A DNA stretch of 64,000 nt, taken from positions 103,974,001 through 104,038,000 of the forward strand of contig OZ024744.1 in NCBI GenBank assembly GCA_964016885.1, given 5' to 3'. This document shows positions 304 to 19,322 of this stretch, in pieces (within the stretch, counting starts at the first letter, position 1; every line of letters starts with the position of its first letter). The stretch comes from Eledone cirrhosa (taxonomy: Eukaryota). Both the position numbers and the translations under genes were made by a program. Under the pieces are notes generated by a model. The model ran no database searches. It worked only from the letters and a program-made list of their open reading frames with translations, and was not told the origin of the DNA.

Positions 304-560
304 TACACACACACACATACATATACACACATATATATCTATACACACATATACAAATATACACACATACATAAATATACACATATATTTATACAAACAT
401 ATATAAATATACACACATATATATTTATACACACATACATATATATATATACACATACACACACATACATATATATATATACACACACATACACACAAAT
501 ACACACATATATATCTATACACACACATATATAAATACACATACACATACATACACACAT
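1..560. repeat. Compound microsatellites (TTA)n, (TG)n, (TA)n, (CA/TA)n
   Basis: Direct inspection. Confidence 0.95.
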
Positions 561-1239
561 GGTGGCTGCCAACTCGTTTTCGAGTACGGCCACTACTTTA
601 TATCCATGTAGGAGAACCCCTAGCGATGCGCTGAACGAGTGTGACTTTTTAGTCCAGCCAGCGACTTGAACACTCTGGTACAAACACTACACTTGTGACA
701 ATTATTGACACATAGTGCTGGGCCCTTGGTACCATGTGATGACAAGTGCAAAGAGATCTCCAGATATAAAGCAATGCTTGTGCCGTGAAGCTTTTATAGT
801 GAGCAAAGACACTGCACAAAGCCAGCCGCACTCTCTTAACCAAGATGATATTTACCAAAAAGAAGAACAAGTCAACATCATTGGATACCATCAGGGTTGC
901 AGGTGTTATATCAGAGTTTTCCTTCTCCTAGAATTCTGCCTTGACAAAGGCTAAGGGGTCATCTCTCCCGGTGATTTTGGATGGCCATTGACTCTTAAGA
1001 GCTCCTTTGCCCTTTGACAGGTTTTGTTTTTAGTCCTGCAGGATGTCCAAAGTCACCCTCCTCACCAAGAAACCTTGGTGGGGTTGCCAGTTTAGTCGCC
1101 AACGACCCGACCATGAGACAGGTTGTACTGGGATACATGTTACCAGTAGCACCAACTGGTGACCTGACATACATACATATATATATATAAATATATATAT
1201 ACATATAAATGAAAGGTATAGAAAATATATATATATATA

Positions 1240-1341
1240 CAATTGCTTCCCCGGTGAACAGCTCGAGGAGCGATCTGTGTGTGGATCGACCTGACTCTTG
1301 AATCGCAGGTTCCTCAGACACGTCTATTGATTTCGGAGCAG

Positions 1342-1400
<59 letters not shown>

Positions 1401-1715
1401 CGAAGGAAATGTGGTAAGGAACCAGATGGACCATAACGCACCAAAGTACTCAATACTTAGGGTAGTAGAGTGGGTAATAGGTACAAGTAGGACCCCGACG
1501 GCTGAGGACAAGCCGTTTCGACGGCTAATTCTGGAATTAGCCGTCGAAACGACTTGAGATGTTAAATGGTTAAGAATAAATCTTAACCATTTAACATCTC
1601 AGGGTATGTCATGTATCATTATATTTTGTCTGATGAGGACGTACTGTTGTACATCCGAAATATGTATAATAAAATGTAATTGATCAAAAGAATATCTATT
1701 TTATTAATACTTATA

Positions 1716-1785
<70 letters not shown>

Positions 1786-1890
1786 CTGCTCCGAAATCAA
1801 TAGACGTGTCTGAGGAACCTGCGATTCCAGAGTCAGGTCGATCCACACACACAGATCGCTCCTCAAGCTGTCGCCGCCGGGGAAATAATT
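1240..1890. mobile_element. Inverted-repeat module: ~105-bp arms facing inward onto (TA)n tracts, enclosing palindromes and a hammerhead
   Basis: 1240-1345 (…gaggagcgatctgtgtgtggatcgacctgactc…gatttcggagcagattat) is the reverse complement of 1781-1890 with few mismatches. Confidence 0.7.
1618..1680 (+). ncRNA. Type I hammerhead ribozyme motif
   Basis: Stem I attatattttgt/ataaaatgtaat; CTGATGA at 1630-1636; stem II ggacgtac/gtacatcc; GAAA at 1657-1660; self-complementary stem III atatgtat; AUA cleavage triplet. Confidence 0.8.
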
Positions 1891-2060
1891 GTAATACGCA
1901 ATAAATTGAGTTCTGATGCATCATTGATTTTTCGTTTTCCATTCTATATATATTGATAAATATGGTGGGTCCATCAACTCCTTATATATATATATATAGC
2001 TTCCAACAGAAATGGTCGCATTCTTTAAGGGTATGTCACTATTTATTTATAAAACTGATC

Positions 2061-2138
2061 TATATTATATTTTATCTGATGAAAGCGCACCATAATTTGA
2101 CTTGGTGTCCTTGAAATATGTATAATGAAATAAATATG
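2061..2138 (+). ncRNA. Type I hammerhead ribozyme motif (second copy)
   Basis: Stem I tattttat/atgaaata; CTGATGA at 2076-2082; stem II aagcgcacca/tggtgtcctt; GAAA at 2113-2116; stem III atatgtat; AUA. Shares the upstream motif agggtatgtca with the first copy. Confidence 0.75.
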
Positions 2139-2283
2139 GTTTTATAAATATAGTTTCCATTTGTTAATATATCGTATATTTACTCCAATAAATTGTTGAG
2201 TGCTTTATATCAGTTATAAAAATATTTGCTTTTTGTATCCCAACAATTTAAATATAACTTCCACATATATATATATATATATA

Positions 2284-2968
2284 TATAAATGAAAAGTATA
2301 GAAATTGTTGTAGCGAGAAGCTAACAGTATTCCATAACAGTATTCTATAACAGTATTCCATTATTGGCAGTATCGGTAGAGGGTCGGACGCCATGCTTTC
2401 CAGCATAGTTACGTCCTTATGGGGTCGATAAAATAAAGTACCAGTAATGCACTGAGTATGTTGCTGGCCTTGTGTTTAAAGTAGAAACAATTATTCCATA
2501 ACAGTATTCCATAACATTATTCCATAACATTCCTACCTACCTATATATATATATATATAAACTAGCCAGTTTTAGAATTCCCTTTTTCGGATTATAATAC
2601 TGTGAGAGCCCTGGTTTTCGGCTGAGCTCTGCTGATGAATGAAATCCAACCGTGACCATCTCCACTGAAAGTTTTCATGAAATAGTCTTTTAAGACTATA
2701 CAGAGCATTTGATGTTATTTCAAATTGAAGGATAAGTGTTTTGAACTTTATTTTATCATGAGTTAAAGGTCTATTGATTTTTCCCTGGATTGCACTAAAT
2801 TCTGTGGATGAATTTGTATCCTGATTCTCTTTTGAGATGAGTTTAAATTATTTTTCCTAAATCTTACGTTAACTACTTTTCCCATCTTGACGCTATAGTC
2901 GTATATATGTTATAGAATGCTGTTAGCTTCTCGCTAAAACAATCTCTATACCTCTCATTTATATATAA
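2284..2968. mobile_element. MITE-like element with ~60-bp terminal inverted repeats, in (TA)n
   Basis: tataaatgaaaagtatagaaattgttgtagcgagaagctaacag (2284) is inverted relative to ctgttagcttctcgctaaaacaatctctatacctctcatttata (~2920-2968). A third partial copy lies at ~1205. Confidence 0.55.
2364..2492 (+). mobile_element. tRNA-derived SINE family A, internally deleted copy
   Basis: ttggcagtatcggtagagggtcggacgccatgc...ggggtcgataaaataaagtaccag...aaagtagaaacaatt matches the other family A copies. Confidence 0.8.
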
Positions 2969-3498: not shown

Positions 3499-6400
3499 AA
3501 ATATAAACTACATCTCAACTCTTAAGCATGTTTCTCCACATCCCACACACAAAAATACCCAACGTTCTAAGATTGTTCACTTTTACAATAAATTCAAGCT
3601 TGAAATATAAACTACATCTCAACTCTTAAGCATGTTTCTCCACATCCCACACACAAAAATACTCAACGTTCTAAGATTGTTCACTTTTACAATAAATTCA
3701 AGCTTGAAATATAAACTACATCTCAACTCTTAAGCATGTTTCTCCACATCCCACACACAAAAATACTCAACGTTCTAAGATTGTTCACTTTTACAATAAA
3801 TTCAAGCTTGAAATATAAACTACATCTCAACTCTTAAGCATGTTTCTCCACATCCCACACACAAAAATACTCAACGTTCTAAGATTGTTCACTTTTACAA
3901 TAAATTCAAGCTTGAAATATAAACTACATCTCAACTCTTAAGCATGTTTCTCCACATCCCACACACAAAAATACTCAACGTTCTAAGATTGTTCACTTTT
4001 ACAATAAATTCAAGCTTGAAATATAAACTACATCTCAACTCTTAAGCATGTTTCTCCACATCCCACACACAAAAATACTCAACGTTCTAAGATTGTTCAC
4101 TTTTACAATAAATTCAAGCTTGAAATATAAACTACATCTCAACTCTTAAGCATGTTTCTCCACATCCCACACACAAAAATACTCAACGTTCTAAGACTGT
4201 TCACTTTTACAATAAATTCAAGCTTGAAATATAAACTACATCTCAACTCTTAAGCATGTTTCTCCACATCCCACACACAAAAATACCCAACGTTCTAAGA
4301 TTGTTCACTTTTACAATAAATTCAAGCTTGAAATATAAACTACATCTCAACTCTTAAGCATGTTTCTCCACATCCCACACACAAAAATACTCAACGTTCT
4401 AAGATTGTTCACTTTTACAATAAATTCAAGCTTGAAATATAAACTACATCTCAACTCTTAAGCATGTTTCTCCACATCCCACACACAAAAATACTCAACG
4501 TTCTAAGATTGTTCACTTTTACAATAAATTCAAGCTTGAAATATAAACTACATCTCAACTCTTAAGCATGTTTCTCCACATCCCACACACAAAAATACCC
4601 AACGTTCTAAGATTGTTCACTTTTACAATAAATTCAAGCTTGAAATATAAACTACATCTCAACTCTTAAGCATGTTTCTCCACATCCCACACACAAAAAT
4701 ACCCAACGTTCTAAGATTGTTCACTTTTACAATAAATTCAAGCTTGAAATATAAACTACATCTCAACTCTTAAGCATGTTTCTCCACATCCCACACACAA
4801 AAATACCCAACGTTCTAAGATTGTTCACTTTTACAATAAAGTCAAGCTTGAAATATAAACTACATCTCAACTCTTAAGCATGTTTCTCCACATCCCACAC
4901 ACAAAAATACCCAACGTTCTAAGATTGTTCACTTTTACAATAAATTCAAGCTTGAAATATAAACTACATCTCAACTCTTAAGCATGTTTCTCCACATCCC
5001 ACACACAAAAATACTCAACGTTCTAAGATTGTTCACTTTTACAATAAATTCAAGCTTGAAATATAAACTACATCTCAACTCTTAAGCATGTTTCTCCACA
5101 TCCCACACACAAAAATACCCAACGTTCTAAGATTGTTCACTTTTACAATAAATTCAAGCTTGAAATATAAACTACATCTCAACTCTTAAGCATGTTTCTC
5201 CACATCCCACACACAAAAATACCCAACGTTCTAAGATTGTTCACTTTTACAATAAATTCAAGCTTGAAATATAAACTACATCTCAACTCTTAAGCATGTT
5301 TCTCCACATCCCACACACAAAAATACTCAACGTTCTAAGATTGTTCACTTTTACAATAAATTCAAGCTTGAAATATAAACTACATCTCAACTCTTAAGCA
5401 TGTTTCTCCACATCCCACACACAAAAATACTCAACGTTCTAAGATTGTTCACTTTTACAATAAATTCAAGCTTGAAATATAAACTACATCTCAACTCTTA
5501 AGCATGTTTCTCCACATCCCACACACAAAAATACCCAACGTTCTAAGATTGTTCACTTTTACAATAAATTCAAGCTTGAAATATAAACTACATCTCAACT
5601 CTTAAGCATGTTTCTCCACATCCCACACACAAAAATACCCAACGTTCTAAGATTGTTCACTTTTACAATAAATTCAAGCTTGAAATATAAACTACATCTC
5701 AACTCTTAAGCATGTTTCTCCACATCCCACACACAAAAATACCCAACGTTCTAAGATTGTTCACTTTTACAATAAATTCAAGCTTGAAATATAAACTACA
5801 TCTCAACTCTTAAGCATGTTTCTCCACATCCCACACACAAAAATACTCAACGTTCTAAGATTGTTCACTTTTACAATAAATTCAAGCTTGAAATATAAAC
5901 TACATCTCAACTCTTAAGCATGTTTCTCCACATCCCACACACAAAAATACCCAACGTTCTAAGATTGTTCACTTTTACAATAAATTCAAGCTTGAAATAT
6001 AAACTACATCTCAACTCTTAAGCATGTTTCTCCACATCCCACACACAAAAATACCCAACGTTCTAAGATTGTTCACTTTTACAATAAATTCAAGCTTGAA
6101 ATATAAACTACATCTCAACTCTTAAGCATGTTTCTCCACATCCCACACACAAAAATACCCAACGTTCTAAGATTGTTCACTTTTACAATAAATTCAAGCT
6201 TGAAATATAAACTACATCTCAACTCTTAAGCATGTTTCTCCACATCCCACACACAAAAATACTCAACGTTCTAAGATTGTTCACTTTTACAATAAATTCA
6301 AGCTTGAAATATAAACTACATCTCAACTCTTAAGCATGTTTCTCCACATCCCACACACAAAAATACCCAACGTTCTAAGATTGTTCACTTTTACAATAAA

Positions 6401-17904: not shown

Positions 17905-18602
17905 ATCTCCCTCTCAATGTCTCGGCGCATGTTCACTTCTTGTCCCAGGTAGACGTATTCCTCCACCATTCGACCTGTTGGTACGTTGTCGGTTCATCTT
18001 GAGGCCTACTGCAGAGCCTTTGATGTCGAACTCCGTCAGCTTGGTCTGAAGCTGATCTGTGGTTTCAGCGATGAGTATGATGTCATCAGCAAAACGGAGG
18101 TGGGTAAGTATCTCGCCGTTGATGTTGACACCACCTTGCCAGTCAATGCCTCTGATGATCTGCTCGAGACATGTGATGAAAAGTTTTGGAGAGATCGTAT
18201 CTCCTTGCTTCACTCTCTTCTCGACCGGCACTCGTACGGGTGATGACAGCAGAGCTATGTCGGTGGTGCATCCGGAACTCGCCTCCCTGAGCAGTTGAAC
18301 GTATTGCGCTCCGACTCCTTGCCTCTGCAGCGAGTTCAGCACTGCGTTGATTTCGACGCTGTCGAAGGCCTTCTCGTAGTCTACGAACGCGACGCAAAGA
18401 GGCATCTTGTACTCTTTTGATCGTTCAAGCAGTTGTGTCAGAGTAAATATGTGGTCCATTGTGCTGTAGTTTTTCCGGAAGCCGGCTTGCTCTCTCGGTT
18501 GCTGCTTGTCCAGATGACGTGATAACCTGTTCAGGATTATCTTCGTGAACAGCTTGTACACGTGAGACAACAGGCATATGGGTCGGTAGTTCTTCAACAT
18601 CG
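17905..18602 (-). pseudogene. RTE-clade LINE reverse transcriptase fragment
   Basis: [42 protein letters not shown], then a frameshift into VEEYVYLGQ. The N-terminal part of the listed ORF is microsatellite read-through. Confidence 0.93.
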
Positions 18603-18651
18603 GAGGTGTTAGTCGTCGAAAAAACGTTTTCCTTTGTGTTGTATTTTTTGT

Positions 18652-18705
<54 letters not shown>

Positions 18706-18773
18706 AAGAAATACCAATGACGGCTGGAAGATCACTGGTGACGGACGCCTTGTCTTCTCGGTCTAATTTTATT

Positions 18774-18863
<90 letters not shown>

Positions 18864-18984
18864 GGAGGTGAGATTTATTGTAGTACAATAAAGCAATGCA
18901 GATATCGGATAAGAAGCACTCTACAGTTTGTGGGACTGGAGTATGCATAATATAAGATCAAAAGATGGTTAAAGGAGTTCAATA

Positions 18985-19055
18985 TATTTTATTATGCGCA
19001 TTTCAAAAACAAACATCATCAAACAATAATATTTGTGTTTTCATCAGATAAAACA
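18985..19055 (-). ncRNA. Type I hammerhead ribozyme motif (left arm of palindrome)
   Basis: Reverse complement of the 19198-19268 motif (tcatcag at 19041-19047, tttc at 19001-19004). Confidence 0.8.
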
Positions 19056-19197
19056 GGAGAACATGATATGAAGGCTAAAAAAACACTTGTTGATAGTGCA
19101 GTTTTAAATCAACATATCATGTTTTAAATCAACATATATGTTGATTTAAAACTGCACTATCAACAAGTGTTTTTTTAGCCTTCATATCATGTTCTCC

Positions 19198-19268
19198 TGT
19201 TTTATCTGATGAAAACACAAATATTATTGTTTGATGATGTTTGTTTTTGAAATGCGCATAATAAAATA
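19198..19268 (+). ncRNA. Type I hammerhead ribozyme motif (right arm of palindrome)
   Basis: Stem I tgttttat/ataaaata; CTGATGA at 19206-19212; 16-bp stem II with a gttt loop; GAAA at 19249-19252; perfect palindromic stem III atgcgcat; AUA. Confidence 0.8.
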
Positions 19269-19322
19269 TATTGAACTCCTTTAACCATCTTTTGATCTTA
19301 TATTATATATATATATATATAT

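What the first reader, a model, noticed from the sequence alone, without database searches (positions are those of the whole stretch)
1601..2138. Tandem pair of related hammerhead ribozymes with covarying stem II
Seen: two same-strand motifs ~445 bp apart share agggtatgtca upstream, stem I (tattttRt/atRaaat), CTGATGA and GAAATATGTATA. Their stem II sequences are entirely different yet each base-pairs (ggacgtac/gtacatcc; aagcgcacca/tggtgtcctt), and the 19198 motif has a third stem II. Structure conserved without sequence argues for selection on the ribozyme fold. Inference: the two could form the dimeric active fold in one transcript and release a ~450-nt RNA, as non-LTR retrozymes do.
Basis: partly seen in the sequence, partly recalled or inferred. 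Interest (0 to 1): 0.75.

Follow-up and report, generated by a model that had tools for sequence, protein, structure and literature searches.

The report
Penelope retrotransposon ends with hammerhead ribozymes
The two predicted self-cutting RNA motifs are real, but each is the broken-off end of a different, related jumping gene (Penelope-like, one of about 26,000 such motifs in this genome), and they likely sit side by side only because both landed in the same TA-repeat hot spot, so this is ordinary and probably not a dedicated small-RNA cassette.

Summary
Both type-I hammerhead motifs are real (C3 at 1630 and 2076; predicted cuts after 1668 and 2124; 0 of 100 strict shuffles). They are not one unit. 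Each is the 3' pseudo-LTR end of its own dispersed family. Walking upstream in other copies reaches RT plus GIY-YIG ORFs with the motifs of Hydra-clade Penelope-like elements, 55-64% identical between the two families in the RT region. In full elements the partner hammerhead is a same-family copy 3.8-4.2 kb away. The shared core pattern occurs 25,786 times in the genome (control 0). The 456-nt spacer is a mosaic of (TA)31, a third repeat family carrying another candidate hammerhead, and (TA)n; only the window covered it whole among 40 scored candidates, and 0 of 120 copies show the circle junction. Stem II covariation is real: four compensatory pairs and a conserved unpaired C. A cross-family dimer is possible in sequence but untested; there is no RNA evidence. 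The scan has reported similar Penelope-type hammerhead repeats elsewhere in this genome, not these sequences. New members of a known kind.

The parts
1574..1724 (+). 5'-truncated 3' pLTR end of Hydra-clade PLE family 1 (short end, +52 nt from the cut site, into (TA)n)
   Evidence: (19 of 19 other loci match at 97-99%)
1618..1680 (+). HH1, type-I hammerhead: stem I 1618-1629/1669-1680, core 1630-1636, stem II 1637-1656, GAA 1657-1659, palindromic stem III 1660-1667, predicted cut after 1668
1555..1601 (.). fold-back hairpin at the truncated 5' end of the family-1 copy
   Evidence: self-BLAST (94% inverted)
1721..1783 (.). (TA)31 target tract inside the spacer
1785..1963 (+). third repeat family (C); candidate type-I hammerhead with long branched stem II (C3 1810, GAA 1882, predicted cut after 1893); a second, inverted copy at 1240-1343
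1984..1997 (.). short (TA)n tract separating family C from family 2
1998..2264 (+). 5'-truncated 3' pLTR end of Hydra-clade PLE family 2 (long end, +140 nt from the cut site, into (TA)n)
2068..2132 (+). HH2, type-I hammerhead: stem I 2068-2075/2125-2132, core 2076-2082, stem II 2083-2112, GAA 2113-2115, palindromic stem III 2116-2123, predicted cut after 2124
1400..1558 (-). fourth repeat family (D), joined head-to-head to the family-1 copy with no (TA)n between; its 3' end runs into (TA)28 at 1344-1399
2545..2965 (+). part of a 629-bp tandem-forming family with a monomer-type hammerhead (C3 2632, predicted cut after 2700); not part of the finding
18993..19260 (.). inverted pair of HH3 motifs (C3 19047 minus, C3 19206 plus), another dispersed (TA)n-ended family

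Best explanation
The two motifs are the hammerhead-bearing 3' ends of two sister families of Penelope-like retroelements (Hydra clade by motif match), 5'-truncated and likely inserted in separate events into one (TA)n-rich hot spot. Shown: each motif is the terminal 150-270 nt of a family whose full copies read hammerhead, about 200 nt, ATG, RT, CxCx5C linker, GIY-YIG, long 3' UTR, hammerhead, (TA)n. Inferred mechanism: the element's GIY-YIG endonuclease nicks (TA)n; the RT primes at one of two internal sites about 50 or 140-150 nt downstream of the hammerhead, which gives short and long ends and two-armed insertions; most copies stop early, so only the hammerhead end is left. In a full element the hammerhead would cut as a dimer with a same-family copy through the palindromic stem III and free a 3.8-4.2-kb unit RNA. 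Each insertion leaves fresh (TA)n beside it, so ends of different families pile up; this pair is one such pile-up and is predicted to have no function as a pair.
For: Separate families. Upstream walk: 20 of 20 loci found with the family-1 upstream sequence carry HH1; ORFs. Same-family hammerhead pairs flank the ORF at 3,794 and 4,107 nt (L098, L097) and 4,166 nt (L126); ATG at +213 and +190. Hydra motifs RWR, DKT, CxCx5C, no CxxC between GIY and YIG, CxxC..E..N..CxH match the definition in PMC8557442 section 11 and, by eye, the Hydra-1_Obim protein in its supplement. 51 homologues at E<=1e-10, the named ones from Argonauta, Holothuria, Actinostola, Octopus. 25,786 exact pattern matches against 0; (TA)5 within 400 nt downstream in 29 of 30; 4 same-strand pairs within 1 kb among the first 100 matches against 0.18 expected, all 4 with microsatellite between and none with this spacer. 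17 of 22 head-to-head pairs have one short and one long arm.
Against: No cleavage or expression data. The ORF pieces hit no Pfam RT or GIY-YIG model; the RT call rests on motifs, a weak match to another PLE-type RT piece (23%, E 8e-6) and homologue labels. Clade assignment is by motifs, with no tree. RWK reads RWR, elements are about 4.2 kb against 'generally <3 kb', and the tail is 90-100 nt against 30-40. No intact ORF among the copies fetched (longest open piece 635 aa). HH2:HH2 and HH1:HH2 did not cofold into a complete double hammerhead. The DNA search scored only 40 of 3,884 candidates, so a second copy of the whole spacer could have been missed. The order of insertion is inferred.
Confidence: 0.9

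Rival explanations
1. Accidental cassette: the locus is a pile-up, but read-through transcription lets HH1 and HH2 form a cross-family double hammerhead that releases a 456-nt RNA, which could be circularised (a nascent chimeric retrozyme).
For: Identical 8-nt palindromes; swapped stems I pair with 8 and 12 bp; the forced heterodimer (-118.6) is no worse than two forced monomers (-117.8 kcal/mol). Same-strand pairs are common, so such transcripts may arise somewhere in the genome.
Against: 7.8 kcal/mol above the MFE, stem III pairing probability 0.000; (AU)31 and a candidate third hammerhead lie inside; no hybrid junction in 120 copies; PLE hammerheads cleave slowly and may need protein (PMC4209133, PMC11167929).
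Confidence: 0.07
2. A bona fide non-LTR retrozyme: a selected tandem unit bounded by two hammerheads that spreads through a circular RNA.
For: Spacing lies in the 150-450 bp range given for metazoan retrozymes (PMC7229834); retrozyme-like tandem families exist in this genome (629-bp family).
Against: No tandem repeat at 1600-2140; the two hammerheads and their flanks belong to different ORF-bearing families; the spacer is not repeated.
Confidence: 0.02
3. The motifs keep the fold for a reason other than cleavage (an RNA handle or dimerisation signal for the PLE protein).
For: In the anole Poseidon element, ribozyme mutants did not affect insertion in vitro and no RNA-seq ends were found at the cut site (PMC11167929); the invariant unpaired C10.4 and the upstream GGGTATGTCA (27 of 30) are not needed for the minimal core.
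Against: All catalytic core bases, A15.1-U16.1 and a non-G at 17 are kept across families (the pattern search selects for this). Compatible with the best explanation rather than exclusive of it.
Confidence: 0.2

Closest known systems
Hydra-clade Penelope-like elements, e.g. Hydra-1_Obim (Craig et al. 2021, PMC8557442; passages, section 11 whole, and rows of supplementary Files S1/S2 and alignments seen)
   Same: Single ORF with C-terminal GIY-YIG, RW(K/R), DKT, CxCx5C linker, no CCHH, CxxC and CxH round the E and N, type-I hammerhead near the 3' end, (TA)n targets, tandem and inverted arrangements.
   Different: Two families not listed there (the one octopus entry has a different hammerhead and is 2.5 kb); about 4.2 kb with a 1.3-1.5 kb 3' UTR; clear pLTRs; 8-nt even palindrome in stem III; stem II of 8-10 bp with a fixed unpaired C; tail 90-100 nt. 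Repbase and Dfam were not checked.
PLE minimal and palindromic-helix-III hammerheads (Cervera and de la Pena 2014, PMC4209133; parts 1-2 of 4 read; dimer cleavage also per review PMC6765202, passages; Lunse et al. 2017 not held, known only through that review)
   Same: Type-I topology, long helix II, small palindromic helix III, thousands of dispersed copies from truncated PLEs, dual motifs on opposite strands 100-700 bp apart.
   Different: [quoted passage not shown]
Poseidon PAc of Anolis (Frangieh et al. 2024, PMC11167929; parts 1-2 of 4 read)
   Same: Two RT start sites downstream of the hammerhead give short and long ends; AT-rich targets.
   Different: Other clade; here both ends fall before the ATG (cut site 190-213 nt upstream of it) and lie 90-100 nt apart.
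Metazoan non-LTR retrozymes (Cervera and de la Pena 2020, PMC7229834, passages; Li, Clavereau and Pollet 2026, 10.64898/2026.07.22.740005, part 1 of 5)
   Same: Type-I hammerheads a few hundred bases apart on one strand, low GC, PLE-related.
   Different: Retrozymes are tandem repeats of one non-coding unit with the same hammerhead; here two different hammerheads from ORF-bearing families bound a single-copy mosaic.

Membership tests
Type-I hammerhead ribozyme | Core CUGANGA...GAAA...UH with stems I, II, III in type-I order | tested here: met
   stem III only as an 8-nt palindrome (dimer form)
Type-I hammerhead ribozyme | Covariation in helices | tested here: met
   90.6% paired at 7 positions in 29 of 30 loci (one 18-nt stem dropped) against 79.1 +/- 1.7% partner-shuffled, 0 of 2000; slid partners 29-50%; A-U/G-C swaps at 10.2, 10.3, 10.5, 10.6. 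Copies are related, so this is not a probability.
Type-I hammerhead ribozyme | Site-specific self-cleavage | not testable with these tools
   needs an in vitro assay or raw RNA reads
EN+ Penelope-like element | Single ORF, RT followed by GIY-YIG | tested here: met
   (motifs, in broken copies); no Pfam hit; homologues
EN+ Penelope-like element | pLTRs with a hammerhead, direct and inverted | tested here: met
   L097, L098, L126 direct; 22 inverted pairs
EN+ Penelope-like element | Optional tail at one end, 5' truncation | tested here: met
   two end classes; 17 of 22 short+long; tail longer than published
Hydra clade | RWK, DKT, CxCx5C, no CCHH, CxxC/CxH | tested here: met
   RWR variant, the rest exact
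Hydra clade | (TA)n target preference | tested here: met
   29 of 30
Hydra clade | RT groups with Hydra elements in a tree | not tested
   reference sequences were only viewed in the supplement
Non-LTR retrozyme | [quoted passage not shown] | tested here: not met
Non-LTR retrozyme | Non-coding, not part of an autonomous element | tested here: not met
   both ends trace to ORF-bearing PLEs
Non-LTR retrozyme | Unit-length linear and circular RNA | not testable with these tools
   only contigs were available

The most novel reading that the evidence does not exclude
The stem III palindrome is a dimerisation code shared across sister PLE families: kept identical at about 26,000 sites while stems I and II covary, it lets RNAs of different families pair and cut each other, so that chance pile-ups like this one release hybrid RNAs (a route to new retrozymes) and two different RNAs can template the two arms of one insertion (arms of different subfamily in L202; head-to-head joins of different families in L010 and at window 1558/1574). 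The fixed unpaired C10.4 would be a tertiary or protein contact particular to these ribozymes.
Probability: 0.12. Interest if true: 0.65.

Novelty: new member of a known kind. Interest (0 to 1): 0.27.

Why it matters
As it stands the finding is ordinary: hammerheads in PLE pseudo-LTRs, their palindromic stem III, their dimer mode and an octopus Hydra element are published. What it adds is two abundant, recently active Hydra-type families with full anatomy (clear pLTRs, two priming sites about 95 nt apart) and a large natural covariation set. It is also a caution: two same-strand hammerheads a few hundred bases apart in this genome are common pile-ups (4 per 100 motifs) and should not be called retrozymes without a repeated unit. 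If cross-family dimers work, they would give a testable origin for chimeric retrozymes and hybrid insertions.

Tried and rejected
Rfam scan: no hammerhead hit, only microRNA-like false matches on hairpins and microsatellites. GIY-YIG family search of the genome: the 30 loci fetched of 150 matches were mostly another PLE type with CxxC between GIY and YIG; one held an HH1 match (L058) and none HH2, so this route did not link the motifs to an ORF; walking upstream by DNA did. Pfam found nothing on 10 ORF pieces. The protein atlas gave no answer. RNA: no RNA holder listed; four runs laid were all contigs, and the two guessed-RNA runs did not cover HH1 or HH2; this is no evidence on expression. 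Circle or hybrid junction: 0 of 120 copies in 203 loci, window copies included. Chance motif rejected. Tandem or segmental duplication of one element rejected: different stems II, tails and upstream sequence. Earlier notes by sequence: none. Lunse et al. 2017 not held. I did not search the literature for the unpaired C10.4, so no claim is made that it is unreported. Supplements of the bioRxiv paper could not be seen.

Full report
Observation. HH1 has C3 at 1630, a 12-bp stem I, a 7-of-8 stem II and a predicted cut after 1668; HH2 has C3 at 2076, an 8-bp stem I, a 9-of-10 stem II and a cut after 2124. In both, the 8 nt from A15.1 to U16.1 are the same self-complementary segment. The descriptor found 5 motifs in the window (1630, 2076, 2632, 19206 and 19047 on the minus strand) against 0.01 per shuffle, and 0 in 100 shuffles when the palindrome was required. 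Rfam has no model that catches them.

Two families, not one unit. HH1 with about 55 nt of flank each side is found at 96-100% identity on many contigs (44 matches, 40 of 109 candidates scored), HH2 likewise (52 matches, 40 of 1,293 scored). In the fetched loci the HH1 match spans window 1574-1724 and the HH2 match 1998-2182 or 1998-2290, each running into (TA)n, often with an inverted second copy. The exact pattern shared by the two cores occurs 13,013 + 12,773 times in the 3.0-Gb genome and the reversed control 0 times.

What the families are. Longer copies extend upstream. All 20 loci found with the family-1 upstream sequence carry HH1, and several reach an endonuclease ORF ending about 1.3 kb before it. 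Larger stretches show the whole design in both families: hammerhead, ATG 213 nt (family 1) or 190 nt (family 2) after the cut site, RT, linker, GIY-YIG, long 3' UTR, second same-family hammerhead; cut-to-cut 3,794 and 4,107 nt (L098, L097) and 4,166 nt (L126). The proteins are 55-64% identical in the RT region. They carry RWR, DKT, YRDD, CxCx5C, no cysteine pair between GIY and YIG, and CxxC and CxH round the conserved E and N. These are the marks by which Craig et al. define the Hydra clade of Penelope-like elements, nearly all of which insert into (TA)n (PMC8557442 section 11); their table lists Hydra-1_Obim from an octopus, whose protein matches block by block by eye and whose hammerhead differs. 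Pfam hit none of 10 ORF pieces. A database search gave 51 homologues at E<=1e-10, best 40-42% over most of the length, the named ones from aquatic invertebrates including two cephalopods; the host is likely a cephalopod (inference). All fetched copies are broken; no tree was built.

The spacer. Between the cut sites lie the family-1 tail, (TA)31, a third family (1785-1963), 20 unassigned bases, (TA)n and the family-2 5' part. Searched as a whole, only the window covered it; other hits covered the third family or family 2 alone (40 of 3,884 candidates scored). The third family holds a further candidate hammerhead (C3 1810, GAA 1882, own palindrome, 5-bp stem I, long branched stem II with one extra base each side), kept in 4 of the 4 other near-full copies checked; an extra base on both sides is common in published Hydra hammerheads. 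A circle of the 456-nt piece would join the HH2 core to the HH1 tail; 0 of 71 HH2 and 0 of 49 HH1 copies in 203 loci were hybrid. Pairs like this are common: 4 same-strand pairs within 1 kb among the first 100 pattern matches, against 0.18 under uniform spacing; all 4 have microsatellite between them and none shares this spacer. The region 1200-2970 holds pieces of at least six repeat families divided by (TA)n.

Covariation. Anchored on the core, HH1 and HH2 stems II align: G-C/A-U, G-C/A-U, A-U/G-C, C.A/C.C, G-C/G-U, U-A/C-G, A-U, C-G. In 29 of the first 30 genome matches (one 18-nt stem dropped), 90.6% of cells at seven positions pair against 79.1 +/- 1.7% with shuffled partners (0 of 2,000) and 29-50% with slid partners; position 4 pairs in 0 of 29 and its 5' base is C in 29 of 29. 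Copies are related, so this counts a few lineage events, but it confirms selection on the fold in the master elements.

How it works. Shown: element design, (TA)n ends (29 of 30), two end classes at about +50 and +140-150 nt (HH1 18 and 14 of 43; HH2 36 and 16 of 58), and one short plus one long arm in 17 of 22 head-to-head pairs. Inferred from the Poseidon work (PMC11167929): nicking of AT-rich DNA and priming at two internal sites. Inferred from PMC4209133 and PMC6765202: slow, dimer-dependent cleavage. Two HH1 strands cofold into the full double hammerhead (-31.6 against 2 x -14.4 kcal/mol); HH2:HH2 and HH1:HH2 did not. In the 546-nt read-through RNA the forced heterodimer lies 7.8 kcal/mol above the MFE, forced monomers 8.6 above, and the cross pairs have probability 0.00-0.02; the model gives no credit for the catalytic core, so the heterodimer is not favoured and not excluded.

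RNA. No RNA holder was listed and only contigs could be laid; nothing follows about expression.

Verdict. Real ribozyme motifs with real covariation, but an accidental neighbourhood of two truncated Hydra-type PLE ends; fails the retrozyme test (PMC7229834; bioRxiv 2026). Earlier notes of this scan describe two-armed Penelope-type hammerhead repeats in the same genome (unchecked AI notes, read after my reading was formed); none matched these sequences. New members of a known kind; interest 0.27. The boldest reading left open is a palindrome code shared across families that allows cross-family dimers and mixed-template insertions (L202, L010, window 1558/1574), probability about 0.12.

Noticed in passing
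window 2545-2965 (+), with an inverted end piece at 2283-2340: A better retrozyme candidate than the finding: part of a young family (40 scored matches at 96-100%) with a 629-bp unit, head-to-tail copies in 9 of 19 other loci (three cores in L149), longest stop-free frame 91 aa, 34% GC, and a hammerhead with a 7-bp stem III that folds as a monomer (C3 2632).
   Followed up: partly
window 1785-1963 (+) and 1240-1343 (-): Family C: candidate type-I hammerhead with a roughly 65-nt branched stem II and its own palindrome. The two copies point outwards and enclose the D and HH1 pieces. The minus copy ends in (TA)n at the predicted cut site.
   Followed up: partly
window 1400-1601: Family D (minus, long end) and family 1 (plus, short end) are joined head-to-head through two fold-back hairpins with no (TA)n, like the two arms of one insertion made from two different RNAs. 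D has GAAA and hairpins but no canonical type-I core in the copies seen.
   Followed up: partly
L202 250-680; L010 1390-1980; L141 near 1400: Mixed insertions: arms with stem II loops of two subfamilies (L202), a family-2-type arm joined to a family-1 arm (L010), and an HH1-type core joined to an HH3-type core (L141); possible template switching.
   Followed up: partly
window 18920-19305: Perfect two-armed insertion of the HH3 family; its central 122-nt hairpin gives false microRNA hits in Rfam. HH3 keeps the unpaired C10.4 but has a different palindrome.
   Followed up: partly
window 2322-2531: Internally deleted copy of a very abundant short repeat (2363-2495) between two arrays of one 13-mer; this repeat is what the guessed-RNA contigs matched.
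   Followed up: no
window 17914-18762 (-): 282-aa RT fragment (Pfam RVT_1, E 8e-30), apparently a LINE remnant unrelated to the hammerheads.
   Followed up: no
window 3499-64000: Most of the window is minisatellite arrays (periods 104, 68, 36, 11, 50, 20, 34, 59, 21).
   Followed up: no
window 560-1168: Another dispersed repeat (95-97% to copies in L093, L128, L013), unidentified.
   Followed up: no
G000, L041-L070: Many GIY-YIG PLEs of another type (CxxC inside the nuclease core) with no canonical hammerhead within 1.5 kb downstream in most of 30 loci.
   Followed up: no
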